From positions 99,406 to 163,405 of the forward strand of contig JANQNE010000007.1 of NCBI GenBank assembly GCA_028279725.1: a stretch of DNA of 64,000 nucleotides, in the 5' to 3' direction. The DNA comes from Candidatus Nanoarchaeia archaeon (GTDB lineage: Archaea; Nanobdellota; Nanobdellia; Woesearchaeales; JANQNE01). Each line of letters starts with the position of its first letter. Position 1 is the stretch's first letter. This document shows, one piece after another, positions 20,657 to 57,382 of this stretch. A model generated the notes under the pieces. The model was not told the DNA's origin. It did not search any database and saw only the letters and a list, made by a program, of their open reading frames with translations. Both the position numbers and the translations under genes were made by a program.

Positions 20657-21769
20657 TTAAAAGGTTTTCGATAAAACCACAACCTTATACTCCTGCTTTC
20701 CACTCCAGACTAATCTCTCTGATTCTATCTTAAACTTCTTCCTCAAAGCAGTTTTCTTGAAAAGCTCGATATTCTTTGAAATTGCAACCATTTTCCCTTT
20801 CAAAATAAATTCAGCATTGTGAAAAAACTCATCATAAAGTTTCTGTATAACTGTCGGTCCAGCATGCTGTGTTATTATCGGTGGATTTGTTACAATAAGA
20901 TCAACTGCCCCTTTGTCAAGTTTAGCATCCAGCCATTTTGCTTCGATCCTAGAAAAATTTATCAGCTTCTCAACACCAGCGATCTTTGCATTGTTCTTTG
21001 CAGACTTGATATATCTAAGCTGGTCGTCAAAACCATTCAGTTTAATCTCCTTGCTCTTGTCAGTTTCCTTATCAATCTTATCAAAGAATTTGTCAAAATC
21101 AAACTTCTCAAAACATTTGAATCCTAAAAAAGCAAATTTATCCTTTTGATAAAAATTAACCGGAAACTTTGACTTATGCAGAGCAGCTTCAATTATTAAA
21201 GTTCCACTTCCGCAAAAAGGATCCAATACATTTTCTCCTTCAGCCAATCTATACACGCAATAAGCGACAGTTCCCTTCAGTGCATAAGGATGCTGAAAGA
21301 TCTTATACTGCCTTTTGCTCAGATCAATTCCAGAAAAATCAACTCCAAGATATGCTTTTCCTCCTGAGATATTGACAAAAAAAGTTACATCAGGATCTTC
21401 CAGTTTTACTTTAGCTTTTTTCCTGTCTAAGATAAATCCTCCAACTCTGGATTCAACATCTTGTGTTGATTCATCTCCATCATGCATGCATCTTACACAA
21501 AAAGTTGTATCCTTCCCAAACCATTCATCAATATTTATCTTCTCAACTGATTTCTTTATATCATCAACATCAGAATAATCTACTGTATCAATCAGATAAA
21601 GAACCTTAACAACAGATTGAGCTTTATAACAAAGAAGACAAAGATCTTCCAGCTTACAGTCAAATTCAACACAGCCATCAAGAACTTTCCCCTTAGCTCC
21701 TATCAGCTCAAAAATTTCTTTAGAACAAATATCTTCAAAACCCTTATGAGTTATAGCTAATCCTTTCAT
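20657..21769 (-). CDS. THUMP-domain class I SAM-dependent RNA methyltransferase (Trm14/TrmN-like tRNA m2G methyltransferase).
   Basis: SAM-binding [15 protein letters not shown]. Catalytic DLIVTNPP. N-terminal THUMP-like region. There is a 4-nt overlap with gyrA. Confidence 0.6.
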
Positions 21770-27535: not shown

Positions 27536-28666
27536 TTACGCAGCTCTTTGGTCTTCTTCAGTATCTTCAAAATCTTCTGGTTTTCCTTGAGCTAGATTTT
27601 CCATATCACTATGTTCTTGTTCTTCTTTAGTATAATTCTTTTCCGTAAACTCTCCTTCTTCCTCTTCTGACTTCTCTTCCCTTTCTTCATGAGTTTCTTC
27701 AGGTTCTTCCTTCGGTTCCTCTTCCTCTGCTTTTTCTTCCTTAGGTTCTTCCTGCTTTGGAGGGACATAACCTTCAGGATGGATCATCTCTTCAATCCTT
27801 TTCTCGACTTCAGGAGCAACTTCCTCAGTTTCAACTTTCGCAACGATCTCATCAGCTTTCTTCTCTTTATCTTCCTGCCTCTTATTGTCTTCTTTTCCTT
27901 CTGTGATTATCTCAGGCTGCAATTTCTCTTTTATCTCTTTAACTTCTTTATTCCTTTCCTCTTCATCTTCAGGTTTTTCTTCATAAGTTTCTAATTTAGT
28001 CTTAGCTCCAAAATCATCAACAATATCAATCTCTTTCTCCAATTGTTCAGCCTTCTCTTTCTCCTCTCTCATCTTCTGTTCCATCTCTTCTTTTTTAGCT
28101 TTGGCCTCTTCAACTTTCTCTTCTGTATCTTTTATCTCTCCTTCTCTTTTTTCTATAGCATCCCTTACCTCTTCAGGAACAGCCTGCCTGAAAGTTTCCC
28201 TTGTCTGTTCACCTTTAGGCAGATCAAAATAATCAAAGAACTTCTGGGTCAGCTTTATCGACCTTGTCCTTCCGTAGACTTCTCTTGCGATAAAACCAGC
28301 AGCCTCCAGCTCTTTCATATGCTCATAAGCTTTATTATTTCTTATCTTGATGACATCAGCCTGTAATATTGGATATTTCCAGGCAATGACTGCTAATGTT
28401 TCCATTATAGACTTATCAAGTTCAGTTTCAGAGACTATATTCTGCACAATTCCTAAATATTTCTCCCTTACAGCTAATTTCCACGTATCTCCCTCGTTGT
28501 CAAGCATCAGGGAGCTATCTTCATCGCCATATTTCTCCTTTAATTCCTCAAGGCCTTTCTTTACCTGAGAAAGTTTAAGGTTTGTCAGCTGTACGATCTC
28601 ATCCTCTCTCATCTTTCTTCCGGATGAAAACAGCAAAGATTCTACTTTATTTGATTCTTCACTCAT
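27536..28666 (-). CDS. scpB: Segregation and condensation protein B (ScpB) with a long acidic K/E-rich tail.
   Basis: N-terminus SLLFSSGRKMREDEIVQLTNL with tandem winged-helix regions. About 200 aa of E/K low complexity at the C-terminus. Confidence 0.65.
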   Translation of the reverse strand: MSEESNKVESLLFSSGRKMREDEIVQLTNLKLSQVKKGLEELKEKYGDEDSSLMLDNEGDTWKLAVREKYLGIVQNIVSETELDKSIMETLAVIAWKYPILQADVIKIRNNKAYEHMKELEAAGFIAREVYGRTRSIKLTQKFFDYFDLPKGEQTRETFRQAVPEEVRDAIEKREGEIKDTEEKVEEAKAKKEEMEQKMREEKEKAEQLEKEIDIVDDFGAKTKLETYEEKPEDEEERNKEVKEIKEKLQPEIITEGKEDNKRQEDKEKKADEIVAKVETEEVAPEVEKRIEEMIHPEGYVPPKQEEPKEEKAEEEEPKEEPEETHEEREEKSEEEEGEFTEKNYTKEEQEHSDMENLAQGKPEDFEDTEEDQRAA

Positions 28667-37394: not shown

Positions 37395-38147
37395 ATGTAT
37401 ATGAAACTTACTTTAGCAGAACCAAACTATCTAAAAGACAGTATTTCGATAATCTCAGAGCTAGTTAACGAAGCTTCTTTCAAGATCACATCTAACGCAG
37501 TTGAGATGGTAGCGATGGACCCTGCAAACGTTGCAATGGTCGTTTTCAAGCTTCTTTCATCATGCTTTGCAGAATATGATGTAAAAGAAGACACAAGTAT
37601 CGCGATTAATCTTAATAATCTTAAACAGATCCTGAAAAGAGCAGGCTCAAGTGATGTTTTAACATTAGAGTTAGACAAAGAAAACAAGCTTAAGATACAG
37701 ATCAAAGGTAATACTACAAGAACTTTCTCATTGCCTATAATAGAATTAGAAGAAAAAGAACAGAAGGTTCCTGACCTAAGCTTTGCTGCATCAATAAAGA
37801 CTTCAACAACACTTTTCAATGAAGCTATTGAAGACGCTGATATTGTAGCTGAATCTGTTGTTTTTGAGGCTGAGCCTAAAAAACTGACACTTATGGCTGA
37901 AGGAGATCTTTCAAAAGCTAAGATCGACATAAATGATGGAGACTCAACTAAGATAATCACAGAAGGTGAAGATAAGGTAAAAGCAAAATACTCCATAGAA
38001 TATCTGAAGAAGATGACTGGAGGATCAAAGCTTTCTAACGAAGTCAGCATCCAGCTAAACAAGGATTATCCATTGAAACTGGAATACAAAAGCGTCGACA
38101 AGGTTATGCTTTCATTCATACTCGCCCCTAGGGTAGAGAATGAATAA
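37395..38147 (+). CDS. pcn: DNA polymerase sliding clamp PCNA.
   Basis: 250 aa. The two-domain PCNA pattern. N-terminus LAEPNYLKDSISIISELVNEASFKI. Confidence 0.8.
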   Translation: MYMKLTLAEPNYLKDSISIISELVNEASFKITSNAVEMVAMDPANVAMVVFKLLSSCFAEYDVKEDTSIAINLNNLKQILKRAGSSDVLTLELDKENKLKIQIKGNTTRTFSLPIIELEEKEQKVPDLSFAASIKTSTTLFNEAIEDADIVAESVVFEAEPKKLTLMAEGDLSKAKIDINDGDSTKIITEGEDKVKAKYSIEYLKKMTGGSKLSNEVSIQLNKDYPLKLEYKSVDKVMLSFILAPRVENE

Positions 38148-38651: not shown

Positions 38652-39767
38652 TTATTCTTTTTTGTTTAAATACCTTGTAAGAAACTCCTGCCTGTACTCT
38701 TCAAAACTTCCTTTCTCTATCTCTTTCCTTGCCTCTTTTATCATATTCTGCAAAAAATAAAGATTATGTATCGTCGCCAATCTCAAACCGAAATTTTCCC
38801 TGGAATTCAGCATAAAATTAACATAAGCTTTTGAAAAATTCTTGCATGTATAACATTTACACCCTTCTTCTATAGGTGCATTTTCATCAATAAACTTTCC
38901 CCTGTCAAGCCTTATCTGTCCATCTCCCGTAAACAAGCTCCCTCTTCTTGCATTCTGCGCAGGAAATATTGAATCAAATATGTCTGCACCCATTGATATT
39001 GAATTCAGTATCTCTTCAGGAGTGCCCATACCCATTACATACTTTGGCTTCTCCTTATCGATATTCTTCATCCCAGCTTTTATCATCTCATAAGTCTTCT
39101 TCCTGTCCTCTCCGATGCATAACCCTCCAAAAGCAACACCATCAAAATTCAATCCATCAATAAATTTAGCGCTCTCAGAACGCAGATCCTCGAATATTCC
39201 GCCCTGTATTATCCCAAACATCATCTGCTTGTCATTCTTATGAGCTTTCAGACATCTCCCAGCCCAGTCATGCGTCCTATTCATAGAAGCCTTAACATCT
39301 GATTTTTTATCATCATGATGCGGAACATGATCAAATGCCATCGCAACATCACTCCCAAGTTGATTCTGTACTTTTACAGAATCTTCCGGCCTAAACCACC
39401 CGCTCTTTCCGTTGATAGGATCTTTGAACTTCACGCCTTCATCAGAGTATTTGACGAAAAAATCATCAAGCAGCACTTGAAATCCGCCGGAATCAGTAAA
39501 TATCCCTCTATCCCAGTTCATAAACTTATGGATGCCTCCAAATTCCTCGATCAATTTAGAGCCAGGCTTTAAAGAAAGGATAAAAGCATTTGATATCAGG
39601 CATTCAGTGCCCATCTCTTTAAGCTCTTCAGGACTTATATTCTTAACATTTGCCTTCGTCCCAACTGGCATAAAAAACGGAGTCTTCAACCTCCCATGCG
39701 CTGTATTTAGATATCCAGTCCTTGCTTCATTGTCTTCTTTTTTTATCTTGAACATATCAGGAAACAA
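38652..39767 (-). CDS. tgt: Queuine/preQ1 tRNA-guanine transglycosylase, bacterial-type short form.
   Basis: GRLKTPFFMPVGT, DSGGFQV, FGIIQGG, the LFTGDG region, and the zinc motif CKCYTCKNFSKAYVNFM. 371 aa. It lacks the long archaeosine-TGT C-terminal PUA region. Confidence 0.8.
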   Translation of the reverse strand: MFPDMFKIKKEDNEARTGYLNTAHGRLKTPFFMPVGTKANVKNISPEELKEMGTECLISNAFILSLKPGSKLIEEFGGIHKFMNWDRGIFTDSGGFQVLLDDFFVKYSDEGVKFKDPINGKSGWFRPEDSVKVQNQLGSDVAMAFDHVPHHDDKKSDVKASMNRTHDWAGRCLKAHKNDKQMMFGIIQGGIFEDLRSESAKFIDGLNFDGVAFGGLCIGEDRKKTYEMIKAGMKNIDKEKPKYVMGMGTPEEILNSISMGADIFDSIFPAQNARRGSLFTGDGQIRLDRGKFIDENAPIEEGCKCYTCKNFSKAYVNFMLNSRENFGLRLATIHNLYFLQNMIKEARKEIEKGSFEEYRQEFLTRYLNKKE

Positions 39768-40455: not shown

Positions 40456-41025
40456 ATGATTTCTAAAGAAAAGAAGAAGGTGTTGCTCCATGTCTGCTGC
40501 GCTCCATGCGCAACTCATGTAATTAACAGACTAAAACTAGCCTATAATCTGACTTTTTTTTTCTACAATCCAAACATCTATCCAGAATATGAGTACAAAA
40601 AAAGACTAGAGAATGCAAAAAAAATAGCTGAAAAACTCAGAGTTCCATTAGTTGAAGGAAAATATGATCCAGACAATTGGCTAAAAGCAGTAAAAGGATA
40701 TGAAGAAGATAAAGAAGGTGGAGAAAGATGCAGCATATGCTTCAACTTTAGGTTAGAAAAAGCAGCAAAATATGCAAAAGAGAACAACTTCAACTTATTC
40801 ACGACAACCCTTACAATAAGCCCATACAAAAATTCAAAAATTATCAACCTTATCGGAAAAGATCTAGAACAAAAGTACAATATTCCTTTCTTTGAATCTG
40901 ATTTCAAAAAAGAAGATGGTTACAAAAAGAGCATAGAACTTAGCAAAAGATTTGACCTGTACAGACAACACTACTGCGGCTGTGTTTTCTCCTTAAACAG
41001 CAGCATTGCATCACCAAAACTATAG
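40456..41025 (+). CDS. queH: Epoxyqueuosine reductase QueH (DUF208).
   Basis: KVLLHVCCAPCATHV is the signature HxCCAPC. The ORF track starts at 40381. The start chosen here is the MISKEKKK methionine. Confidence 0.7.
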   Translation: MISKEKKKVLLHVCCAPCATHVINRLKLAYNLTFFFYNPNIYPEYEYKKRLENAKKIAEKLRVPLVEGKYDPDNWLKAVKGYEEDKEGGERCSICFNFRLEKAAKYAKENNFNLFTTTLTISPYKNSKIINLIGKDLEQKYNIPFFESDFKKEDGYKKSIELSKRFDLYRQHYCGCVFSLNSSIASPKL

Positions 41026-41984
41026 AATCTATATTTATTCTCTATGGCTTCCTTATAAGCTTCAAATATCCTTTCTCTTCCTGCAAAACCGCAAACCAAC
41101 AAAAGCAAAGTTGATTTTGGAAGATGAAAATTAGTTATCAGCACATCAATTCCAGCTTTAAATTCATGTTCTGGAGTGATAAAAAGATTAGACCATCCTT
41201 TCATTACCTTAACTCCATTTCCGTCGACAGAAGCTGACTCTAAAGTCTTCAATGTTGTAGTTCCGACAGCAAACAATCTGCCAGTTCGATTATTGATCGC
41301 ATCAGCACTCTCTTCACTAACTTCAAAATACTCTTCTTCCATCTTATGATCAAGCACATTCTCACTCCTTACAGGAATAAAAGTTCCAAATCCAACATGG
41401 AGAACAACCTTAACAACCTTTACACCTTTCCTCTCGATCTTGTCCAATAGCTCAGAAGTAAAATGAAATCCTGCTGTCGGCGCAGCTACAGATCCTTCCT
41501 CCTTAGCATACGCTGTCTGATAATCTTCATTCTTATCAAGCTCTTTTTTTACATAAGGTGGAGTCGGAAGCTTCCCATATTTTTTCAAATAATCTTCAAC
41601 ATCATCAATATTAAACTTGACGTAAAAAACATCCTTATTCTGTATTATAATAGTGGCTTTCAACCCATCCTCAAATTCCAGCTCATTCCCTTCCCTAGGA
41701 TTATTCGCAGTTATCCTGACCTTATACAGATCATCTTCCTTTCCTGTGATGATCATCTCAGCTTTAGCCCCTGTACTTTTCTTTCCTATCAGCTTAGCTG
41801 GAATCACTTTAGTCTCATTCAAAACTAAAACATCTCCTTCTTCAAAATAATCAAAAATATCTTCGAAATGTTTATGCTCTAATTTATCCTTGACAACTAG
41901 CATCTTAGAGCTGCTCCTTGGAAAAACAGGCTTTTGTGCTATAAGCTCCTCAGGCAATTCATAATCATAATCTTTAAGTTTCAT
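40971..41984 (-). CDS. queA: S-adenosylmethionine:tRNA ribosyltransferase-isomerase QueA.
   Basis: N-terminus MKLKDYDYELPEELIAQKPVFPRSSSKMLVV is the characteristic QueA start. 337 aa. Confidence 0.85.
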   Translation of the reverse strand: MKLKDYDYELPEELIAQKPVFPRSSSKMLVVKDKLEHKHFEDIFDYFEEGDVLVLNETKVIPAKLIGKKSTGAKAEMIITGKEDDLYKVRITANNPREGNELEFEDGLKATIIIQNKDVFYVKFNIDDVEDYLKKYGKLPTPPYVKKELDKNEDYQTAYAKEEGSVAAPTAGFHFTSELLDKIERKGVKVVKVVLHVGFGTFIPVRSENVLDHKMEEEYFEVSEESADAINNRTGRLFAVGTTTLKTLESASVDGNGVKVMKGWSNLFITPEHEFKAGIDVLITNFHLPKSTLLLLVCGFAGRERIFEAYKEAIENKYRFYSFGDAMLLFKEKTQPQ

Positions 41985-48352: not shown

Positions 48353-50563
48353 ATGATCAATAACTTCAAGCCAAGGCTTTACCAGGAAACTATCCTTTCT
48401 ACAGCAGTTAACTATAACACCTTGGTTGTTCTTCCTACAGGTATGGGTAAGACAGCAGTCTCCCTTATGCTTTCAGTAAAACAATTATCATTGTATCCAG
48501 ACTCAAAAATTGTCATCCTAGCTCCCACAAGACCTCTTATAGACCAACATATGAGAACATTCAAATCATTTTTGAATATTGAAGAGGATAAACTAGCTGT
48601 CTTCACTGGATTTGTAAAACCTACAGTAAGACAAGAGCTATGGAAAACAGCTCAGCTGATCTTCTCAACACCGCAAGGGCTGGAAAATGATATTATCTCA
48701 AACAGGATAAGCTTAGAAGATGTCAGCCTACTTGTCTTTGATGAAGCCCATAGGGCTGTAAAAGATTATTCTTATGTTTGGATTGCAAAACAGTATAATA
48801 AGCTTGCAAAACATCCAAAAATACTTGCACTTACAGCATCCCCTGGTTCTGATATGGAATCTATAACAGAAGTCTGCAAAAATCTGCATATTGATGAGAT
48901 TGAACTAAGGACTGATGAAGATCCTGATGTCAAACCATACATACAGGAGATGGAGATTAAGTGGGCAAAAGTTGATCTTCCTGAAGAGTTTAAAGAAGTA
49001 AAAAGATTTCTAGAACAATGCTATAGGTCAAAGCTTGAAGAGGCAAAGAACTATGGCTATATCTCATCCCCACAGCTGCAGTACGCTTCAAAAGTAGATT
49101 TGTTGAAAATGCAGTCAAGACTTCATGCAGAGATAGCAAAAGGAGATAAAAACTTTGAGATACTAAAATCAGTATCTTTGATTGCAGAAGCTATGAAAGT
49201 TCAGCATGCCATGGAGCTTATAGAAACACAAGACCCATTAGCGCTTCAGATGTACTTTGAAAAACTACAATCACAAGCTGTAACTTCTAAAGTCCAGGCT
49301 GTAAAAAATTTAGTGAGAGATCTAAATTTTAAATCTGCATTCATAAAAAATAATAATCTTGTTGAAAATAACATAGAACATCCTAAGCTTACAAAGCTAA
49401 AAGAGATATTAAGGGAAGAGATAAAAAAAGACAGAGACGTAAAGATAATAATTTTCTCCCAATACCGTGATGTTGGATCTAAGATAAATGATGAGGTTAA
49501 CAAAATAGAAGGAATCTCATCAAAAGTCTTCATAGGTCAGGCAAAAAAGAACGGAAACGGCATGAGCCAGAAAAAACAGATCGAAGTTCTGGATGAATTC
49601 AGAGAAAATAAGTTCAACACTATCTGTATGACTTCTGTCGGAGAAGAAGGATTAGACATACCTTCTGTAGACTTAGTCATATTCTATGAGCCAATACCTT
49701 CGGCTATAAGGACTATCCAAAGAAGAGGCAGGACTGGAAGAAACGAAAAAGGAAGGGTTACTATTCTTATGACAAAAAACACAAGGGATGAAGGATACAA
49801 ATGGTCTGCTCATCATAAAGAAAAAAGGATGTATAGAAATCTGAATACATTAAAGAAAAATTTCAGATCAAACAAAGTAAAACAGCAGCCTGCTATCTCA
49901 GATTATGTTCTAAAAGAAAAAAAGCTAAAAGTATTCGCAGACTTCAGGGAAAAAGGATCTGGTATAATAAAAGAGCTAATAGACTTAGGAGCAAACATAC
50001 AATTAGAAAAACTAGATTCCGCAGATTATCTTTTATCGCAGAGGGTTGCGGTCGAACATAAGACAACCCATGATCTTGTTGAATCAATAATAGATGGAAG
50101 ATTACTACAGCAGATGAAAGAATTGAAAAGAAACTTCGAAAGGCCAATAATCATCGTAGAAGGTGAAGAAGATATCTATTCCTTAAGAAATATACATCCT
50201 AACGCAATAAGAGGTATGCTTGCAACTATCTCAGTAAGCTATGGTGTTCCTCTGATCTATTCAAGAAACTTCAAAGATTCCGCTGCAATCCTGAACATAA
50301 TCGCAAAAAGAGAACAGGAAGAGTCATCATCAGAATACAGCTTACATGGAGATAAAAAACCATTAGCATCAAAAGAGCAGCAGGAATATATAATCTCATC
50401 TCTCCCAGGAGTTGGTCCTTCTCTAGCAAAAGAACTGCTCAAAAACTTCAGGACAGTAAAAAATATAGTCAATTCAAATCATGAATCACTTAAAGAAGTT
50501 GATAAGGTCGGAGATAAGATCGCAAATAATATAAGAAATATAATAGAAAAAGAATATGTTTAA
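48353..50563 (+). CDS. hef: Hef-like helicase-nuclease: superfamily 2 DEAH helicase, then ERCC4/XPF nuclease-like domain, then HhH2.
   Basis: Walker A VVLPTGMGKTAV. DEAH box VFDEAH. C-terminal ERCC4-like VAVEHKTTHDL and helix-hairpin-helix LPGVGPSLAKELL. 736 aa. Confidence 0.65.
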   Translation: MINNFKPRLYQETILSTAVNYNTLVVLPTGMGKTAVSLMLSVKQLSLYPDSKIVILAPTRPLIDQHMRTFKSFLNIEEDKLAVFTGFVKPTVRQELWKTAQLIFSTPQGLENDIISNRISLEDVSLLVFDEAHRAVKDYSYVWIAKQYNKLAKHPKILALTASPGSDMESITEVCKNLHIDEIELRTDEDPDVKPYIQEMEIKWAKVDLPEEFKEVKRFLEQCYRSKLEEAKNYGYISSPQLQYASKVDLLKMQSRLHAEIAKGDKNFEILKSVSLIAEAMKVQHAMELIETQDPLALQMYFEKLQSQAVTSKVQAVKNLVRDLNFKSAFIKNNNLVENNIEHPKLTKLKEILREEIKKDRDVKIIIFSQYRDVGSKINDEVNKIEGISSKVFIGQAKKNGNGMSQKKQIEVLDEFRENKFNTICMTSVGEEGLDIPSVDLVIFYEPIPSAIRTIQRRGRTGRNEKGRVTILMTKNTRDEGYKWSAHHKEKRMYRNLNTLKKNFRSNKVKQQPAISDYVLKEKKLKVFADFREKGSGIIKELIDLGANIQLEKLDSADYLLSQRVAVEHKTTHDLVESIIDGRLLQQMKELKRNFERPIIIVEGEEDIYSLRNIHPNAIRGMLATISVSYGVPLIYSRNFKDSAAILNIIAKREQEESSSEYSLHGDKKPLASKEQQEYIISSLPGVGPSLAKELLKNFRTVKNIVNSNHESLKEVDKVGDKIANNIRNIIEKEYV

Positions 50564-51072
50564 GGTACATCACTCACGACTAAAGTTTCTGTTCCCTCGA
50601 CATCCTCTATCTGTCTTATGTTCTTCTGGAGAAAATCCTCCAACTCTCTGTTTGTCTTTGTCTTAACTTTAGCGATTATATCAAATTGCCCGTAAAGCTC
50701 ATGCACTCTCTCTACTTCATCTCTTTTTGCTAATTTCTCAGAAACTTCTCTTGTCTTCCCATATTTCACTGTAAATAATATGTATGCTACAGAATCGTTC
50801 AGCCCTGTTGACTCATTTCCCCCTTCTTTTATCGTCTCAGAAACAACTAAAGTCTCTGACCTTGTAACCCCAGGAATATGTCTTATCTTTGTCTCCATAA
50901 ACTCTTCTGCATTAACTCTGTTGTCTGCAACAACCTTGACCAATACATCATACTGTCCGTAAAGCTCATGTATATTCTCTATCTCTTTGTATTCAAGAAG
51001 TTTCTCTGAAACTTTCTTTATCTGTGCTACATCTGTGTTTATCAGGATGAATACTTTGAATTTTTCGCTCAT
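50560..51072 (-). CDS. Tandem RAM-domain (Lrp/AsnC ligand-binding domain) protein with no HTH.
   Basis: Two repeats of the pattern ...VEKVHELYGQYDVLVKV... The ORF track extends to 51177. The start chosen here is the MSEKFKVFIL methionine, which avoids a 109-nt overlap with htpX. Confidence 0.5.
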   Translation of the reverse strand: MSEKFKVFILINTDVAQIKKVSEKLLEYKEIENIHELYGQYDVLVKVVADNRVNAEEFMETKIRHIPGVTRSETLVVSETIKEGGNESTGLNDSVAYILFTVKYGKTREVSEKLAKRDEVERVHELYGQFDIIAKVKTKTNRELEDFLQKNIRQIEDVEGTETLVVSDVP

Positions 51073-51980
51073 AATTTCAACTCCTTTAGTTTTTTTATTC
51101 TTTCCTTCATCGGAGGATGTGTACTGAATAAGTTTAATACACCAACTCCTCTGAAAGGATTTGCTATAAACAAGCATGATGTTGCTTTGCTCCCAAAATT
51201 CATCGGATTCATCTTAACTCCTTGCTCTAATTTATGCAAAGCACTTGCAAGATGGTTCGGATCATTTATTATCCTTGCTCCAGTCTCATCTGCTAAATAT
51301 TCCCTAGATCTTGATATTGCAAGCTGTATTATTGTAGCTATCAAAGGAGTTAATATCGCCAAAGCCAGAAGCTCAAACGCATTCCCACTATCTCTGTCTC
51401 TTCCTCCTCCAAATATAGCTGCAAATCGTGCCATAAATGCAACATATGATATCACGCCTGCTATTGTTGCAGCAACAGTCTGCACTAATATGTCTCTGTT
51501 CTTCACATGAGCTATCTCATGTGCGATAACACCTTTTAGTTCATCCTTTGAAAGCAGCTGCATTATACCGACAGTCGCAGCAACAGCTGCATTCTTTGGA
51601 TTTCTCCCTGTCGCAAAAGCATTTGGATTATGCGTCGGTATTATATAGACTTTAGGCATAGGCACTTTAGCCATATGTGCAACTTCTTTGACGATCTCAT
51701 ACAGTTCAGGAGCCTCTTTTGCTGTAACTTTCTTGGCTTTATACATCGCCAAGACAATCTTATCAGAAAACCAATAAGAGCCAAAATTCATAAGCAGAGC
51801 TAAAACCAGTCCAGCAGCCAACCCTGTTCTTCCGCCGACCAACTGTCCTACTCCTAAAAGTACTCCAGTCAGTAATCCCAATAATATTATAGTTTTTATC
51901 TGATTTTTTATCATCTTACCCCCAATTGCTCCAAAGCCTTTTTGATTTAAAAATCTATCGCTTTTCTTTGATCCTTTCAA
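51069..51980 (-). CDS. htpX: HtpX-like M48 zinc metalloprotease.
   Basis: HEIAHVKNRD (HExxH) and the TM topology typical of HtpX. The start may be the internal MIKNQIKT methionine at about 51914. Confidence 0.75.
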   Translation of the reverse strand: MKGSKKSDRFLNQKGFGAIGGKMIKNQIKTIILLGLLTGVLLGVGQLVGGRTGLAAGLVLALLMNFGSYWFSDKIVLAMYKAKKVTAKEAPELYEIVKEVAHMAKVPMPKVYIIPTHNPNAFATGRNPKNAAVAATVGIMQLLSKDELKGVIAHEIAHVKNRDILVQTVAATIAGVISYVAFMARFAAIFGGGRDRDSGNAFELLALAILTPLIATIIQLAISRSREYLADETGARIINDPNHLASALHKLEQGVKMNPMNFGSKATSCLFIANPFRGVGVLNLFSTHPPMKERIKKLKELKL

Positions 51981-52320
51981 AGTAATTCGCTATCCCTTCT
52001 ATCTGCCTTAGCTTTGTTTTCTTAAAAAGAAAATTTCTGAATCTCTTGTCAACCCTCACTCCTCTCTCGCTAAGCCCTGAATTTATCTTTCCAAATAGCT
52101 TTTTCCCCTCTTTATCAAGGTCCATCAGAACAACACAATCCTTGTATCTGTCTGATATAAACTCAACAACCTTATAAATCGCTCTCCTCCCAAGGGTTAT
52201 CACTTTATCAACATCAAGCTCAGCCAAAGCCCGCTTATCTTTAATACCTTCAACCAATATAACTTTACCAGAATCTCTTAATTTCTCAAGTTCTTCGCAG
52301 AATTCATCATATTCCCTCAT
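51955..52320 (-). CDS. Small Toprim-domain protein, tentative.
   Basis: VILVEGIKDKRAL with a conserved E, plus LMDLDKEG as a DxD. Confidence 0.35.
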   Translation of the reverse strand: MREYDEFCEELEKLRDSGKVILVEGIKDKRALAELDVDKVITLGRRAIYKVVEFISDRYKDCVVLMDLDKEGKKLFGKINSGLSERGVRVDKRFRNFLFKKTKLRQIEGIANYFERIKEKR

Positions 52321-52379
52321 AAACTCATTAAAACAAAAAGTATTATATATTTTTATTGTATCTTTCAGTCTGAGGGGGT

Positions 52380-53993
52380 ATGTTAGACTTAAGCACTACT
52401 TTATTGTATTACAAGAGAAAAGATATCCAGGACGCTCTTGTTGATTATGGAAAGAACAGAGAAGTAGTCGGCAGCTTCAAAGGTCAGGGCTTTGCAAAAA
52501 GACCTGACACAATACAATACCCGAGAGATGTTATAGAACTTGTTAAGCAGGGCATAACCTCATTCCACGTCTCTGAAGAAGTTTGGCACAATCCGCTACA
52601 ATTAGACTCAAGCATGAACAGAAGAGATCTTGACGAGCTTAGGATGGGTTGGGATTTAGTATTAGATATTGACTGTCCGTTCTGGCAGCTTTCAAAAACA
52701 ACCGCATGGCTGATAATAAAAGCATTAAAAGAGCATGGTGTAAAATCTATCTCATGTAAGTTCTCAGGAAATAAAGGATTCCATCTTGGAGTTCCTTTTG
52801 AAGCATTCCCTGAAAAGATTTCAGGCAACGACACAAAAGATGTATTTCCAGAAGGCCCGAGAAAGATAGCAGAATATTTAGTAAATTACATGAGTTCAAA
52901 ACATACAAAAGTCGACGGAGATAGTGTTATCTTTGGAGATTCTGTATCTCTCCCCCTAAAAAAGATAGAAGAAGACACAAAAAAGACAAGAGATGAAATA
53001 ACAACAAAATCATGCAGCTCCTGCGGTAAAAAGATAAAAGACAAAGGAACATCTGAATCAAAGTCAACTTTCTACTGTAATTCGTGCGGATTTGAAGAAG
53101 AAGCAAAAACAGATGAACTGTTCAAAAAATGCACTAAGTGCGGTTATCCTGTTGAGGCTGCAGAGACAAAAAAAGCTTTGTGCGACTGTGGCTCAAGTAA
53201 ATATGAGCTTAAGTTCAATCCTTTATCAGTTATTGAAGTTGATACTATTTTAATAGCATCAAGACACCTATACAGGATGCCTTACTCTCTTCACGAGAAA
53301 TCTTCTCTTGCATCTGTCCCAATAGACCCAGAAAAAATCCTTGACTTTGAAAAAGATATGGCAAAGCCAGAAAATGTTAAGATCAATGAATTCAAATTCT
53401 TAAACTTAGAAGAAGGTGTAGTTGGAGAATGCAACGAACTCTTTAGAGAAGCTTTTGATTTCAATCCTGATGTAGATGAAGAAGAAAGCGATGATACAAT
53501 AAAAAAAGATTTTGAATCCTTACAGGAAGCTGCTCCAAGGGATCTTTTCCCTCCTTGCATAAAAAATATCCTCAAGGGATTAAAAGATGGGAAAAAACGT
53601 TCACTATTCATACTTACTAATTTTCTAACATGCTGCGGATGGCAGTATGATGATATTGAAAAGATCCTGAAAGAATGGAATCAGAATAATGAAGAACAGT
53701 TAAGAGAAGTCCTAATCACAGGACAGCTTAGATACCATAAGCAAAACAAGAAAAAGGTCCTGCCTCCAAACTGTCCTCCACACAACACATACTTAAAAGA
53801 CATTGGAGTCTGCGTCCCAGATAATATCTGCAGCAGAATAAAAAACCCAGTTTCCTACACAAAAAGAAAAGCCTTCGCAATCAGCAAACAAGCTGAGCCT
53901 GGCAAAGCAGGCAGAACTAGGCTTACAGAAGAGCAGAAGGAGATGCGTAGAAAACACAGGAAAAAGTTGAAAAAAGAGAAGGAAGAAAATTAA
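52380..53993 (+). CDS. priS: Fused DNA primase: PriS catalytic domain with a zinc ribbon, joined to a PriL-CTD-like Fe-S domain.
   Basis: LVLDIDCP is the catalytic DxD. SGNKGFHL. Zn ribbon CSSCGKK...CNSCG...CTKCG...CDCG. C-terminal cysteines CIKN...CCGW...CPPHN...CVPDNIC resemble the PriL C-terminal 4Fe-4S domain. 537 aa. Confidence 0.6.
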   Translation: MLDLSTTLLYYKRKDIQDALVDYGKNREVVGSFKGQGFAKRPDTIQYPRDVIELVKQGITSFHVSEEVWHNPLQLDSSMNRRDLDELRMGWDLVLDIDCPFWQLSKTTAWLIIKALKEHGVKSISCKFSGNKGFHLGVPFEAFPEKISGNDTKDVFPEGPRKIAEYLVNYMSSKHTKVDGDSVIFGDSVSLPLKKIEEDTKKTRDEITTKSCSSCGKKIKDKGTSESKSTFYCNSCGFEEEAKTDELFKKCTKCGYPVEAAETKKALCDCGSSKYELKFNPLSVIEVDTILIASRHLYRMPYSLHEKSSLASVPIDPEKILDFEKDMAKPENVKINEFKFLNLEEGVVGECNELFREAFDFNPDVDEEESDDTIKKDFESLQEAAPRDLFPPCIKNILKGLKDGKKRSLFILTNFLTCCGWQYDDIEKILKEWNQNNEEQLREVLITGQLRYHKQNKKKVLPPNCPPHNTYLKDIGVCVPDNICSRIKNPVSYTKRKAFAISKQAEPGKAGRTRLTEEQKEMRRKHRKKLKKEKEEN

Positions 53994-54302
53994 TTAATCT
54001 AATAAATATTCTAACTCGTGCATCAATCTTTCAGAAATATGCTCTTTACTCTTGTTTAATTCATTAATTTTTGCTTCAAGTATTCCTAATGCTTTTGCAT
54101 TAATATTAAAATAAGGTATGAGGATACTTAGATCTGGATTCTGTCTAATTTCTTCATTTACTTTTGCTATGTGCTCATCTTCAGAACCAAAAGTAGTCAT
54201 CAATGAGAATCTATCTGTCACTAGGTCATTTTTGATGAATTCGAGATACATAAGATTACTTTGAATATCTCCTTTATATTCCTCGTTATATTCCCCGACC
54301 AT
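53994..54302 (-). CDS. Hypothetical protein.
   Basis: 102 aa. No recognisable domain. Confidence 0.3.
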   Translation of the reverse strand: MVGEYNEEYKGDIQSNLMYLEFIKNDLVTDRFSLMTTFGSEDEHIAKVNEEIRQNPDLSILIPYFNINAKALGILEAKINELNKSKEHISERLMHELEYLLD

Positions 54303-54614
54303 TTTCTAATACCAAAGATTACCTAGAATGCCCCTTTAATGCTTATAAGCCTCCAATCTATATAAATGTTATTTATACATTAAACCAACCATAAGCTTTA
54401 TAAATCAACTCATATTCTCTCAGACAAATCAAATACAGTATTTAAATCAGCTAAAACATGTTTAAATACATTATTACACATGAAACGAGCCTGAAAAGAA
54501 GCTTTTTCAGTACAGTTTCGCTATAAATAGCGCTGTTTCTAAAAAAGGGCTTCATTAAAAGGCTTTTTCCAACCTTTGAGAGAGGACAATTAGACTGAAT
54601 TGTCTCGTTAAAAA

Positions 54615-55595
54615 ATGCCTAAAGCACATAACCCAAGACACGGAAGCATGCAGTTTTGGCCTAGAAAGAGGGCTAAAAGACCTTATGCTAGAGTTAGATC
54701 TTGGTCCAATGGCAAAGAAGCAAAACTTCAAGGATTTGCTGGTTACAAGGCTGGGATGACTCATCTGTTGATTACAGACAACAGAAAAACATCTTTAACA
54801 AAAAATGAGGACATCATTTGCCCGGTAACAGTCATCGAATGTCCTCCATTAAAAATTTCTTCTGCTCGTTTCTACAAAAAAACAATAAAAGGTCTTGTTC
54901 TTCAAGGTGAAATTCTTGCTGAAAAACTTGATAAAGAATTAGCAAGAAAAATCACACTACCAAAAAAAGTCAAGAAGAACTTCGACGATATGAAAGAGTT
55001 TGATGATATAAGAGTATCAGTATTTACTCAGCCAAAACTAACATCAATCGGAAAGAAAAAACCTGAGATTTTTGAAGTTGGTCTAGGAGGATCAAAAGAA
55101 GACAAATTAAACTATGTTAAAGAAAATCTAGGAAAAGAAGTTGACATTGCAGATGTTCTTCAGGAAGGAGAACAGATTGATATTCACGCTGTAACAAAAG
55201 GAAAAGGATACCAGGGCCCTGTAAAAAGGTTTGGTGTTAAGATCAGATTCCATAAAGGAGAAAAAACATTAAGAGGTCCTGGATCATTAGGCGGATGGAA
55301 AGGTCAAGGGCATTTCATGTATAGGATTGCTCATGCAGGTAAGATGGGTTATCACACAAGAACAGAATATAATAAATGGCTTATAAAAATAGGAGAAAAA
55401 CCAGAAGATATCAATCCAAAGGGTGGGTTCATAAACTATGGTCTTGTAAAAAACAAGTATCTGATAGTAAAGGGATCCATTGCAGGTAACAAAAATACAA
55501 TCATAAGATTCAATAAAGCGATAAGAACTAATAGAAAGATACCAACTCAGGCTCCAGAGATACAATACACAAGCTTAGAGTCAAAACAAAGGTAA
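54615..55595 (+). CDS. rpl3: 50S ribosomal protein L3 (uL3).
   Basis: MPKAHNPRHGSMQFWPRKRAKR... Confidence 0.9.
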   Translation: MPKAHNPRHGSMQFWPRKRAKRPYARVRSWSNGKEAKLQGFAGYKAGMTHLLITDNRKTSLTKNEDIICPVTVIECPPLKISSARFYKKTIKGLVLQGEILAEKLDKELARKITLPKKVKKNFDDMKEFDDIRVSVFTQPKLTSIGKKKPEIFEVGLGGSKEDKLNYVKENLGKEVDIADVLQEGEQIDIHAVTKGKGYQGPVKRFGVKIRFHKGEKTLRGPGSLGGWKGQGHFMYRIAHAGKMGYHTRTEYNKWLIKIGEKPEDINPKGGFINYGLVKNKYLIVKGSIAGNKNTIIRFNKAIRTNRKIPTQAPEIQYTSLESKQR

Positions 55596-55597
55596 AA

Positions 55598-56398
55598 ATG
55601 AAAGTATTAGACACTCAAGGAAAAGAAGTAGGAGACAAGAAACTTCCAGCTCAGTTTAAGGAAGAAGTAAATCCAGATATTATAAAGAGAGCTGTCCTTG
55701 CTATACAATCACACAACAAACAGCCATATGGTGCTGATCCGGAAGCTGGAAAGAAATCATCAGCTGAACTTTCAAGAAGAAGGAGAAAGTACAGAGGATC
55801 ATATGGAGTTGGAATATCAAGAGTTCCTAGAAAAGTTATGAGTAGAAGAGGAACTAGGCTTAACTGGGTAGGTGCATTTGCTCCAGGAACTGTAGGAGGA
55901 AGAAGAGCTCATCCGCCAAAAGCAGATAAGATCATAGATCAAAAAATAAATATCAAAGAGAAGAGAAAAGCTATAAGATCTGCTCTTGCAGCAGCTATGG
56001 AAAAAGAAATTGTAAAAGAAAGAGGCCATGAAACACCTGATAATTATCCATTCATCATAGGAAATGATTTTGAATCACTAAAAAAGACAAAAGAAGTTAT
56101 CGCTTCCCTTACAAAACTTGGTTTAGACAAAGAATTGAGCAGATCAGAAAAAAAGACAATAAGATCTGGAAAAGGAAAGACAAGGGGAAGAAAATACAAA
56201 AAAACTAAAGGTCCGCTATTAGTAGTAGCAGACAACTGCACACTTTCAAAAGCTGCTAAAAACATAGCAGGTATAGATATTGTAGAGATAAAAAAGATCA
56301 ACTCAGAACTTCTTGCTCCAGGAGCAGAAGCTGGGAGACTTACATTGTTTACAGAAAACTCAATAACTAAATTAGAAAAAGAAAAACTATTCATGTGA
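55598..56398 (+). CDS. rpl4: 50S ribosomal protein L4 (uL4).
   Basis: Gene order and sequence pattern. Confidence 0.9.
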   Translation: MKVLDTQGKEVGDKKLPAQFKEEVNPDIIKRAVLAIQSHNKQPYGADPEAGKKSSAELSRRRRKYRGSYGVGISRVPRKVMSRRGTRLNWVGAFAPGTVGGRRAHPPKADKIIDQKINIKEKRKAIRSALAAAMEKEIVKERGHETPDNYPFIIGNDFESLKKTKEVIASLTKLGLDKELSRSEKKTIRSGKGKTRGRKYKKTKGPLLVVADNCTLSKAAKNIAGIDIVEIKKINSELLAPGAEAGRLTLFTENSITKLEKEKLFM

Positions 56399-56664
56399 TT
56401 AAGATGGATCCATACAAAATAATAAAACACCCGTTGTCAACAGAAAAATCAATTAGATTGATGGATTCAGAGAACAAACTTATATTCGCAGTATTCGACG
56501 ATTCAACAAAAAAAGATATCAAAGAAGCGATCGAGACAATATTTAAGGTAAAAGTAGTGAAAGTAAACACATTCAAGCACCCTTCAGGACAGAAGAGAGC
56601 CTATGTAAAGCTTTCACCAGACACTCCTGCAATTGATATTGCAACTGAAATAGGTATGATATAA
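56395..56664 (+). CDS. rpl23: 50S ribosomal protein L23 (uL23).
   Basis: MIKMDPYKIIKHPLSTEKSIRLM... Confidence 0.9.
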   Translation: MIKMDPYKIIKHPLSTEKSIRLMDSENKLIFAVFDDSTKKDIKEAIETIFKVKVVKVNTFKHPSGQKRAYVKLSPDTPAIDIATEIGMI

Positions 56665-56665
56665 G

Positions 56666-57382
56666 ATGGGAAAGAGACTAATCCAACAGGCAAGAGGAAA
56701 AGGTTCACCTACTTACAAGTCCCCTAGCTTCAGGTTCAAAGGAGAAGTAAAGCATTATAAGATTACAGACAAAGCAGTTAGTGGAAAAGTTGAAGATCTT
56801 ATCCACTGTGCTGGACATTCAAGCCCGTTGATGATTGTTAACTATGAAGATAATCAGATAATCACAGTCGCTCCAGAAGGTATAAGAGTTGGAGAAGAGA
56901 TTGCATGTGGATCAGGAACAGAATTGAAACCAGGAAATGTTCTTCCTCTAAAAGACATTCCTGAAGGAACACTTATTCATAATATAGAATCAAGACCTGG
57001 AGATGGTGGAAGATTTGTAAGAGCAAGCGGCGGTTACGCTAGAGTTGCAAGCAGGCTTAAGAACAAGGTTCTTGTATCACTTCCTTCAAAAAAGCAGAAA
57101 GAATTTGCTCTGAACTGCAGAGCTAGTGTCGGAGTTATTGCTGGAAGTGGAAGGACAGAAAAACCATTCATAAAAGCAGGAACAAGATTCTATAAGATGA
57201 AAGCTAAGAACAAGCTTTATCCGAAGATCAGCGGAGTATCACAGAATGCAGTTGATCATCCATTCGGTAACGCAAGATCACAGAGAAAATCAAAAGCAAA
57301 GCCTATTCCTAGAAACGCTCCTCCTGGAAGGAAGGTTGGAATGGTAGCTGCTAGAAGAACTGGCAGAAAGAAAGGAAGGTGA
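56666..57382 (+). CDS. rpl2: 50S ribosomal protein L2 (uL2).
   Basis: MGKRLIQQARGKGSPTYKSPSFRFKGE... Confidence 0.9.
   Translation: MGKRLIQQARGKGSPTYKSPSFRFKGEVKHYKITDKAVSGKVEDLIHCAGHSSPLMIVNYEDNQIITVAPEGIRVGEEIACGSGTELKPGNVLPLKDIPEGTLIHNIESRPGDGGRFVRASGGYARVASRLKNKVLVSLPSKKQKEFALNCRASVGVIAGSGRTEKPFIKAGTRFYKMKAKNKLYPKISGVSQNAVDHPFGNARSQRKSKAKPIPRNAPPGRKVGMVAARRTGRKKGR

What the first reader, a model, noticed from the sequence alone, without database searches (positions are those of the whole stretch)
51955..53993. Single-polypeptide primase (PriS fused to a PriL-CTD-like Fe-S domain) divergent from a small Toprim protein
The 537-aa ORF has the PriS catalytic signatures (LVLDIDCP, SGNKGFHL), a four-cysteine zinc ribbon, and a C-terminal region with spaced cysteines (C...CC...C...C..C) resembling the 4Fe-4S domain of the large primase subunit. 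A fused PriS-PriL primase has been described in Nanoarchaeum. Its presence here supports a DPANN-type reduced replisome. A 121-aa Toprim-like protein (E...DxD) is transcribed divergently 60 nt away and could be a functional partner.
Basis: partly seen in the sequence, partly recalled or inferred. Interest (0 to 1): 0.55.

Follow-up and report, generated by a model that had tools for sequence, protein, structure and literature searches.

The report
Known DPANN single-chain DNA primase
This gene encodes the one-piece DNA primase, with the catalytic and iron-sulfur regulatory parts joined in one protein, that is already documented as a hallmark of Woesearchaeota-type DPANN archaea; the small neighbouring Toprim gene looks like an unrelated RNase M5-like nuclease kept nearby by inherited gene order.

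Summary
A 537-aa ORF (52380-53993, +) and a 121-aa Toprim ORF (51955-52320, -) lie 59 nt apart on opposite strands, with the quoted motifs at the stated places.

The large protein is a fused PriS/PriL-CTD primase:
- It hits both Pfam PriS and Pfam PriL.
- The catalytic residues D96, D98, H135 and D288 are invariant.
- The four invariant cysteines C393, C465, C478 and C484 align with the P. abyssi PriL cysteine motifs.

This architecture is already published as a synapomorphy of DPANN Cluster 2, which includes Woesearchaeota, and was characterised biochemically as NEQ395 of Nanoarchaeum equitans.

Two corrections. The "four-cysteine zinc ribbon" is an eight-cysteine double zinc ribbon, a clean 66-aa insertion (aa 212-277) that short forms of the family lack. 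The Toprim protein belongs to the RNase M5-like small Toprim family (PDB 1T6T). It lies beside the primase in 28 of 69 related genomes, and that adjacency decays with divergence at least as fast as that of unrelated neighbours, so a partnership is not supported.

No second priL or priS lies in the window; the rest of the genome could not be scanned. This is an ordinary, known feature.

The parts
52380..53993 (+). Gene for the single-chain (fused PriS/PriL-CTD) archaeo-eukaryotic primase, 537 aa plus stop codon
   Evidence: ORF. Pfam PF01896 and PF04104. NCBIfam PriL and PriS models match in part. More than 3,361 homologues of about 470-560 aa, mostly labelled Woesearchaeota or Nanoarchaeota. 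AF2 model with mean pLDDT 88.3.
52380..53384 (+). AEP/PriS-type catalytic domain (aa 1-335, interrupted by the zinc module)
52656..52679 (+). Motif I, LVLDIDCP (aa 93-100), with catalytic D96 and D98
   Evidence: D96 and D98 are invariant in 64/64 and 82/82 sequences.
52764..52787 (+). Motif II, SGNKGFHL (aa 129-136), the sxH motif with H135
   Evidence: S129, G130, G133, F134 and H135 are invariant.
53013..53210 (+). Eight-cysteine double zinc-ribbon module (aa 212-277), inserted just before motif III. Pairs: C212/C215, C233/C236, C251/C254, C268/C270.
   Evidence: All 8 Cys are present in 56/64 and 67/82 sequences. Five sequences keep only the outer four Cys, and the module is absent in P0098, P0107 and P0119. 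Short forms of 394-417 aa show a clean gap exactly here. Only generic zinc-ribbon similarity was found.
53235..53267 (+). Motif III region, EVDTILIASRH (aa 286-296), with catalytic D288 and with R295/H296
   Evidence: D288, R295 and H296 are invariant. aa 294-325 align with the human Pri1 segment 313-344.
53385..53534 (+). Inter-domain linker (aa 336-385) containing a low-confidence, acidic segment (aa 366-376)
   Evidence: pLDDT is below 50 at aa 366-376. The region varies in length in alignment A1. It is analogous to the flexible linker of NEQ395 (PMC10250227).
53535..53879 (+). PriL C-terminal (4Fe-4S) domain, aa 386-500. Predicted ligands: C393 (53556-53558), C465 (53772-53774), C478 (53811-53813), C484 (53829-53831).
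53880..53990 (+). Lys/Arg-rich C-terminal tail with a predicted helix (aa 517-536) carrying the motif RLTEEQKEMRRKHRKKLKK
   Evidence: Helix 517-536 in the model. The motif recurs in a subset of orthologues; the exact EEQK string is in 13 of 82, and close variants such as DEQK in several more.
52321..52379 (.). 59-nt divergent intergenic spacer with a central A/T-rich TATA-like stretch (GTATTATATATTTTTATT) and GAGGGGGT directly before the primase ATG
   Evidence: Sequence read directly. Promoter function is inferred, not tested.
51955..52320 (-). Small Toprim protein (121 aa), an RNase M5-like two-metal nuclease candidate. E24 is at 52249-52251 and D67-x-D69 at 52114-52122. It is a neighbour, not shown to be part of the primase.
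   Evidence: PF13155 Toprim_2. PRK04017 models E 1.6e-13, below their curated cutoffs. PDB 1T6T E 6e-15. E24, D28, D67, D69 and E108 are at least 98% conserved in 114 homologues.

Best explanation
The 537-aa ORF is the chromosomal replicative primase of a Woesearchaeota-type (DPANN Cluster 2) archaeon. It belongs to the same fused-primase family as Nanoarchaeum equitans NEQ395.

Shown here:
- One polypeptide carries an AEP/PriS catalytic domain, with metal-binding D96, D98 and D288 and the sxH histidine H135.
- A flexible linker joins it to a PriL-CTD domain whose four invariant cysteines (C393, C465, C478, C484) align with the cysteine motifs of a canonical PriL.
- The PriL N-terminal domain, which in heterodimeric primases docks onto PriS, is missing and is replaced by the covalent linker.

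Inferred by analogy with NEQ395 and heterodimeric PriSL:
- The CTD binds template and the initiating NTP and swings on the linker to the PriS active site for dinucleotide formation.
- It then stays on the 5' end of the primer while PriS elongates a short RNA primer.

This long form also has an eight-cysteine double zinc ribbon inserted before motif III, and a basic C-terminal tail. Short forms of the family lack the insertion. My guess, untested, is that these extras act as accessory nucleic-acid or partner-binding modules.

The divergent 121-aa gene encodes a separate RNase M5-like small Toprim nuclease, which is a neighbour through inherited gene order.
For: - Domain hits: PF01896 and PF04104. 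The PriL NCBIfam models match only their C-terminal third.
- Profile and phmmer alignments to P. abyssi PriL place C393, C465, C478 and C484 on FPPC, PPNC and C.PD..C.
- Catalytic and Fe-S residues are invariant in 64/64 sequences, and catalytic residues in 82/82.
- AF2 model pLDDT is 88.3, with a disordered linker at aa 366-376.
- The family is large and almost entirely labelled Woesearchaeota or Nanoarchaeota. It has 751 representatives at 50% identity.
- The gene sits in a conserved chromosomal block next to the uL3 ribosomal operon in dozens of species.
- Several orthologues carry LAGLIDADG inteins, which in my experience are typical of essential replication genes.
- No other PriS or PriL lies in the window.
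- Literature: all DPANN Cluster 2 genomes, including Woesearchaeota, have the fused primase (PMC7414124). NEQ395 is a monomeric, Fe-S-containing, active RNA primase with ligands C289, C364, C376 and C384 (PMC10250227). Its cysteine spacing is 75/12/8, against 72/13/6 here.
Against: - No biochemical data exist for this protein.
- The PriS Pfam score is only marginally above its cutoff (26.9 against 26.8), and the NCBIfam PriS and PriL scores are far below their equivalog cutoffs, so the protein is divergent from canonical subunits.
- The best structural matches of the catalytic domain are LigD-type Prim-Pol domains, slightly ahead of PriS.
- NEQ395 itself could not be retrieved for a direct alignment.
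- Only 64 kb of the genome was searched for a second priL or priS.
- Fe-S cluster binding is inferred from alignment.
Confidence: 0.9

Rival explanations
1. The Toprim protein and the primase form a functional pair. For example, the Toprim nuclease might trim or remove RNA primers, or assist priming, with both genes co-regulated from the shared 59-nt divergent promoter region.
For: A divergent Toprim gene lies immediately upstream of the primase in 28 of 69 related species loci that have enough upstream sequence, always in the same orientation and within about 650 nt. The Toprim acidic active-site residues are conserved. The spacer is short and A/T-rich.
Against: Adjacency falls from 11/16 to 9/21 to 2/19 loci as the primase diverges. 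The unrelated neighbours M48 peptidase (8/16, 11/21, 9/19), Hef (10/16, 11/21, 6/19) and uL3 (14/24, 10/21, 6/23) hold up as well or better. That pattern is what inherited synteny predicts. In 5 loci the M48 gene directly abuts the primase with no Toprim gene. The Toprim family (PRK04017, and PDB 1T6T from the bacterium Aquifex) is not confined to organisms with a fused primase. No literature links the two.
Confidence: 0.07
2. The protein is a mobile-element or repair Prim-Pol, like PolpTN2, pRN1 ORF904 or the LigD PolDom, rather than the cellular replicative primase.
Against: The C-terminal domain is a genuine PriL-CTD with the four Fe-S cysteines. The gene lies in a conserved core chromosomal context (Hef, M48, uL3 operon) across many species. 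The ORFs scanned in the neighbouring 15 kb include no integrase or plasmid genes. It is the only AEP in the window. Published phylogenies place these fusions as vertically inherited in DPANN Cluster 2 (PMC7414124), and PolpTN2 shows no sequence similarity to them (PMC3914693).
Confidence: 0.03

Closest known systems
NEQ395, the monomeric primase of Nanoarchaeum equitans (Schneider, Bergsch and Lipps 2023, PMC10250227; fusion first noted by Iyer et al. 2005, as cited in PMC3914693)
   Same: A single chain with an N-terminal PriS catalytic domain, a flexible linker and a C-terminal PriL-CTD with four Fe-S cysteines. There is no PriL N-terminal domain. Cysteine spacing is comparable (75/12/8 against 72/13/6). 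It belongs to the same DPANN fused-primase family.
   Different: This protein has 537 aa against 393. It carries a 66-aa eight-cysteine double zinc-ribbon insertion before motif III, a longer linker and a roughly 37-aa basic tail. Short forms of the family (394-417 aa) lack the zinc insertion and the long basic tail, and NEQ395, by its length, probably lacks them too. A direct alignment with NEQ395 could not be made here.
Fused PriS-PriL primases of DPANN Cluster 2 and Undinarchaeota (Dombrowski et al. 2020, PMC7414124; Raymann et al. 2014, PMC3914693)
   Same: This is the family the window protein belongs to. Woesearchaeota are explicitly included, and the fusion is described as a synapomorphy.
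   Different: Nothing substantive. In the passages I read, those papers do not discuss the zinc-ribbon insertion or the C-terminal tail motif.
Canonical heterodimeric archaeal/eukaryotic primase PriS-PriL (for example P. abyssi 9F26, S. solfataricus 1ZT2/5OF3, human 4RR2/5EXR)
   Same: The same AEP catalytic fold and motifs I-III, and the same PriL-CTD fold with aligned cysteine motifs. The division of labour between the catalytic and initiating-NTP-binding domains is presumed to be the same.
   Different: One chain instead of two. The PriL N-terminal domain is absent. The canonical PriS zinc knuckle that follows motif I (known from published PriS structures; my recollection, not tested here) is absent: aa 99-128 hold no Cys/His cluster. 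A different double zinc ribbon sits between motifs II and III. Sequence similarity is weak, with scores far below the NCBIfam equivalog cutoffs.
Small Toprim proteins of the RNase M5-like family (NCBIfam PRK04017 models; Aquifex aeolicus 1T6T; B. subtilis RNase M5). This applies to the 121-aa neighbour.
   Same: A Toprim fold with the Glu and DxD residues plus the two extra acidic residues of the two-metal site. D28 and E108 here correspond to D31 and E110 of 1T6T (PMC6755086).
   Different: It lacks the C-terminal extension of bona fide RNase M5: the match covers positions 4-72 of the 174-position TIGR00334 profile. Scores are below the PRK04017 curated cutoffs (50 bits against 120). No substrate is known.

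Membership tests
DPANN fused PriS-PriL (NEQ395-type) primase | One polypeptide with an N-terminal AEP/PriS catalytic domain and a C-terminal PriL-CTD | tested here: met
   [not shown]
DPANN fused PriS-PriL (NEQ395-type) primase | AEP catalytic motifs: hhhDhD, sxH and hD | tested here: met
   D96, D98, S129, H135 and D288 are invariant in 64/64 and 82/82 sequences.
DPANN fused PriS-PriL (NEQ395-type) primase | Four conserved cysteines at the PriL-CTD [4Fe-4S] ligand positions | tested here: met
   C393, C465, C478 and C484 are present in 64/64 sequences and align to FPPC, PPNC and C.PD..C of P. abyssi PriL. Spacing is comparable with the NEQ395 ligands. Actual cluster binding cannot be tested with these tools.
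DPANN fused PriS-PriL (NEQ395-type) primase | The PriL N-terminal (PriS-docking) domain is absent | tested here: met
   PriL models match only their C-terminal parts: positions 211-356 of 360 for NF002588 and 71-191 of 266 for PF04104.
DPANN fused PriS-PriL (NEQ395-type) primase | Sequence relatedness to other fused primases of DPANN Cluster 2 | tested here: met
   Full-length hits at 42-66% identity to hundreds of Woesearchaeota and Nanoarchaeota proteins. Direct alignment to NEQ395 itself was not possible because the sequence could not be retrieved.
DPANN fused PriS-PriL (NEQ395-type) primase | The genome has no separate priS or priL, so this is the sole AEP primase | tested here: inconclusive
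   None was found in the 64-kb window, either by Pfam on 30 of the window's other ORFs of 150 aa or more, including every one of 250 aa or more, or by family HMMs on all ORFs of 50 aa or more. The rest of the genome was not available. The literature states that all Cluster 2 genomes have the fused version (PMC7414124).
DPANN fused PriS-PriL (NEQ395-type) primase | De novo RNA primer synthesis as a monomer | not testable with these tools
   Shown only for NEQ395 (PMC10250227).
Canonical PriS (small subunit of the heterodimeric primase) | A separate subunit with a zinc knuckle directly after motif I, scoring above the PriS equivalog cutoffs | tested here: not met
   TIGR00335 scores 20.5 bits against a cutoff of 143.5. 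No Cys/His cluster lies between D98 and S129. The protein is fused to a PriL-CTD.
RNase M5 / small Toprim family (PRK04017, 1T6T), for the 121-aa neighbour | Toprim Glu and DxD plus two additional acidic residues of the two-metal site | tested here: met
   E24, D28, D67, D69 and E108 are at least 98% conserved in 114 homologues. 1T6T matches at E 6e-15. Residue roles come from PMC6755086.
RNase M5 / small Toprim family (PRK04017, 1T6T), for the 121-aa neighbour | A score above the curated family cutoff, and for bona fide RNase M5 the C-terminal extension | tested here: not met
   The best PRK04017 model scores 50.5 bits against a cutoff of 120. TIGR00334 scores 19.6 against 110.65 and covers only positions 4-72 of 174. 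I therefore treat it as a divergent relative and not as a certified RNase M5.
DnaG-type (bacterial) primase, for the 121-aa neighbour | Zinc-binding domain, RNA-polymerase N-subdomain and Toprim domain | tested here: not met
   Only the Toprim core matches (TIGR01391 E 0.014, positions 249-327 of 414). A 121-aa protein has no room for the other domains.

The most novel reading that the evidence does not exclude
The eight-cysteine double zinc ribbon (aa 212-277) is cleanly inserted before motif III in the long-form Woesearchaeota primases and is absent from the minimal short forms. It may be a functional replacement for the lost canonical PriS zinc knuckle. It could give these single-chain primases template-sequence recognition, analogous to the zinc-binding domain of DnaG and T7 primases, or a docking site for a replisome partner. 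The conserved C-terminal RLTEEQKEMRRKYRE helix could be a second partner-binding motif. As far as I could find, neither feature has been described.
Probability: 0.2. Interest if true: 0.4.

Novelty: already known. Interest (0 to 1): 0.15.

Why it matters
The finding confirms that the window comes from a DPANN Cluster 2 (Woesearchaeota-type) archaeon with the expected single-chain primase, so nothing here changes current understanding.

It has modest practical value. The long form, with its zinc-ribbon insertion and basic tail, is a natural variant of the NEQ395 model enzyme. Comparing the two could show what accessory modules add to a minimal archaeo-eukaryotic primase. The analysis also removes a tempting but unsupported primase-Toprim partnership.

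Tried and rejected
1. Direct alignment to NEQ395. The sequence could not be retrieved. It was not among the 120 listed hits or the 150 representatives. P0376 (394 aa) was checked, but its cysteine positions (296, 367, 379, 385) differ from the published 289, 364, 376, 384. The paper's supplements are not held. I compared cysteine spacing and used short-form relatives instead.

2. Cysteine geometry in the AF2 model. The nested arrangement of the zinc sites (outer C212/C215 with C268/C270, inner C233/C236 with C251/C254) is inferred from the five sequences that keep only the outer four cysteines.

3. A specific origin for the zinc module. A profile search against the PDB and a Pfam scan gave only generic zinc-ribbon matches: HVO_2753-like at 1.8e-6, eL43, PolD DP2, DZR and TFIIB ribbons. 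No specific family was assigned.

4. Literature on the small Toprim family (UPF0292, 1T6T, COG1658). Only a structural comparison in an OLD-nuclease paper turned up.

5. A whole-genome check for priL. Only the window and a 12-kb Logan contig could be read.

6. Toprim as a partner. Considered and rejected on the synteny-decay test.

Full report
**Observation.** A 537-aa ORF runs on the + strand at 52380-53993; its ATG is preceded by GAGGGGGT. A 121-aa ORF runs on the - strand at 51955-52320. They diverge from a 59-nt A/T-rich spacer. LVLDIDCP lies at aa 93-100 and SGNKGFHL at aa 129-136. Base composition is uniform across the window, 33-39% GC, so nothing suggests a foreign island.

**Identity of the large protein.**
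- Pfam gives PF04104 (PriL) at aa 348-468, E 1.1e-8 and above its cutoff. It gives PF01896 (PriS) at aa 101-316, just above its cutoff, and a sub-threshold LigD Prim-Pol hit.
- NCBIfam PriL equivalogs match only through their C-terminal thirds, for example model positions 211-356 of 360 against aa 374-522. The PriL N-terminal domain is therefore absent.
- phmmer and a 64-sequence profile against the PDB both find P. abyssi PriL (9F26_B). They align DLFPPCIKN with DLFPPCVKN, PPNC with PPNC, and C.PD..C with CTPDKHC.
- In the 64-sequence alignment the invariant residues include D96, D98, S129, G130, G133, F134, H135, D288, R295, H296 and the four cysteines C393, C465, C478 and C484.
- Across 80 species-level genome loci plus the window's own two copies (window and L001), the catalytic residues are 82/82 and the Fe-S cysteines 77-80/82.

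**What is already known.**
- The fusion was first noted in N. equitans (Iyer et al. 2005, as cited in PMC3914693).
- Raymann et al. 2014 extended it to Parvarchaeota and Nanohaloarchaeota (PMC3914693).
- Dombrowski et al. [quoted passage not shown] They called it a synapomorphy (PMC7414124).
- Schneider, Bergsch and Lipps 2023 purified NEQ395 (393 aa). It is monomeric and brown, with a [4Fe-4S] cluster ligated by C289, C364, C376 and C384. It primes at triplets with a central T and makes RNA primers of about 9 nt. It does not need the cluster for activity in vitro, and its PriS and PriL domains are joined by a flexible linker (PMC10250227).
- The cysteine spacing here (72/13/6) is comparable with that of NEQ395 (75/12/8).
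- The closest homologues of the window protein are Woesearchaeota and Nanoarchaeota MAG proteins at 45-66% identity. The identical sequence is already in NCBI on a 214-kb contig. The family has 751 representatives at the 50%-identity level with E <= 1e-3, and 322 with E <= 1e-30.

**What differs from the minimal form.** The zinc region has eight cysteines in four pairs, not four cysteines.
- All eight are present in 56/64 and 67/82 sequences.
- Five sequences keep only the outer pairs (C212/C215 and C268/C270), and three lack the module altogether.
- Alignment with short forms of 394-417 aa shows a clean insertion of aa 212-277 between ...EITTKS and KFNPLS..., immediately before the motif III strand. 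Many representatives match in two stretches, aa 1-172 and aa 278-500, for the same reason.
- The retention of only the outer four cysteines suggests a nested pair of zinc sites. This is inference, because model coordinates could not be read.
- The module resembles only generic zinc ribbons: the HVO_2753-like small protein, eL43 and PolD DP2.
- The canonical PriS zinc knuckle that follows motif I (from published PriS structures; my recollection, not tested here) is absent. aa 99-128 form a helix with no Cys/His cluster.
- A Lys/Arg-rich tail ends in a predicted helix with the motif RLTEEQKEMRRKHRKKLKK, which recurs in a subset of orthologues.
- These are variations on a known theme, and I found no description of them in the papers read.

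**Is there a separate priL?** Pfam scans covered 30 of the window's other ORFs of 150 aa or more, including every one of 250 aa or more. They found none. They found instead LeuRS, GyrA, PCNA, RNase J, TGT, QueA, ScpB, the Rpb3-like RNA polymerase subunit and others. Family HMMs, both full-length and CTD-only, run with filters off over all ORFs of 50 aa or more, hit only the gene itself. The remainder of the genome could not be searched, so this criterion rests partly on the literature.

**The Toprim neighbour.**
- It matches Toprim_2, the PRK04017 small-Toprim models (E 1.6e-13, but 50 bits against a cutoff of 120) and Aquifex 1T6T (E 6e-15).
- In 114 homologues E24, D28, E53, D67, D69, R95 and E108 are at least 98% conserved.
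- By the phmmer alignment to 1T6T, E24, D28, D67/D69 and E108 correspond to the two-metal site described for 1T6T, OLD nucleases and RNase M5 (PMC6755086).
- The protein lacks the C-terminal part of true RNase M5 and everything but the Toprim core of DnaG.
- My best reading is a small metal-dependent nuclease, probably acting on RNA, with an unknown substrate.

**Is it a partner of the primase?**
- In 80 species-representative loci fetched with the primase profile, a divergent Toprim gene lies just upstream in 28 of the 69 loci that have at least 500 nt of upstream sequence.
- The whole block is syntenic: Hef in 29 loci, the M48 peptidase in 31, uL3 in 38.
- I binned the loci by their rank in similarity to the window primase. 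Toprim adjacency falls from 11/16 to 9/21 to 2/19. M48 goes 8/16, 11/21, 9/19. Hef goes 10/16, 11/21, 6/19. uL3 goes 14/24, 10/21, 6/23.
- In five loci M48 abuts the primase with no Toprim gene between them.
- This is the signature of inherited gene order, not of selection for the pair. No paper links the two. I put the partnership at about 7%.

**Other support for a replicative role.** Four family members carry LAGLIDADG inteins inserted in the primase. In my experience inteins are concentrated in essential replication genes. The gene also sits directly upstream of the main ribosomal-protein operon in many species, which echoes the replication-translation gene linkage reported for archaea (PMC2643942).

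**Verdict.** The Toprim partnership is not supported. The only possibly undescribed elements are the double zinc-ribbon insertion and the tail motif, which justify a small residual interest.

Noticed in passing
window 53916-53990 (aa 513-537 of the primase): A conserved C-terminal helix motif, RLT[ED]EQKEMRRKYRE.LKK, follows a Lys-rich tail. It is present in a subset of orthologues, including P0107, a form that lacks the zinc module. It could be a partner-binding or nucleic-acid-binding peptide.
   Followed up: partly
proteins P0273, P0295, P0329, P0342 (relatives found): Some fused primases of 883-1019 aa contain an intein splicing domain with a LAGLIDADG homing endonuclease. In three the intein begins around residues 132-148, which I judge to be close to motif II; in the fourth it begins around residue 340. 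P0261 and P0269 appear fused, or have been mis-called, to a hydrolase and a methyltransferase.
   Followed up: partly
window 53994-54302 (-): A 102-aa ORF converges on the primase with no spacer between the two stop codons. It has no Pfam family and no homologue in any of the 80 related loci, so it may be lineage-specific or not a real gene.
   Followed up: partly
window 38652-39767 (-) and 40971-41984 (-): Strong matches to queuine tRNA-ribosyltransferase (PF01702, E 1e-131) and QueA (PF02547, E 6e-118). As I recall, QueA belongs to the bacterial queuosine pathway, so it is unexpected in an archaeal genome and may reflect horizontal transfer.
   Followed up: no
window 21766-24594 (-) and 27536-28666 (-): A bacterial-type DNA gyrase A subunit (E 6e-172) and ScpB sit in the same window as archaeal PCNA (37395-38147), the Rpb3-like RNA polymerase subunit and Hef. 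The replication and chromosome toolkit is mixed.
   Followed up: no
window 378-2813 (+): An 811-aa protein with AMP-binding, phosphopantetheine-binding and acyltransferase domains. It looks like a bacterial-style acyl-activating lipid enzyme in a DPANN genome.
   Followed up: no
window 48353-57382 and loci L002-L081: A conserved block, Hef - (AsnC-like) - M48 peptidase - Toprim - primase - uL3/uL4/uL23/uL2 operon, is shared by many Woesearchaeota. The primase directly abuts the main ribosomal-protein operon.
   Followed up: yes
[not shown]
   Followed up: no
loci L003, L009, L013 and many others; L057; protein P0035: Many public MAG records that carry this Woesearchaeota-type primase are titled 'uncultured Methanosarcinales archaeon'. 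One is titled 'Alphaproteobacteria bacterium' and one protein 'candidate division KSB1 bacterium'. These are probably mislabelled or contaminated bins.
   Followed up: no
window 50560-51072 (-): A 170-aa protein made of two AsnC/Lrp ligand-binding domains, with no DNA-binding HTH detected. It overlaps the ends of its neighbours, Hef and the M48 peptidase.
   Followed up: no
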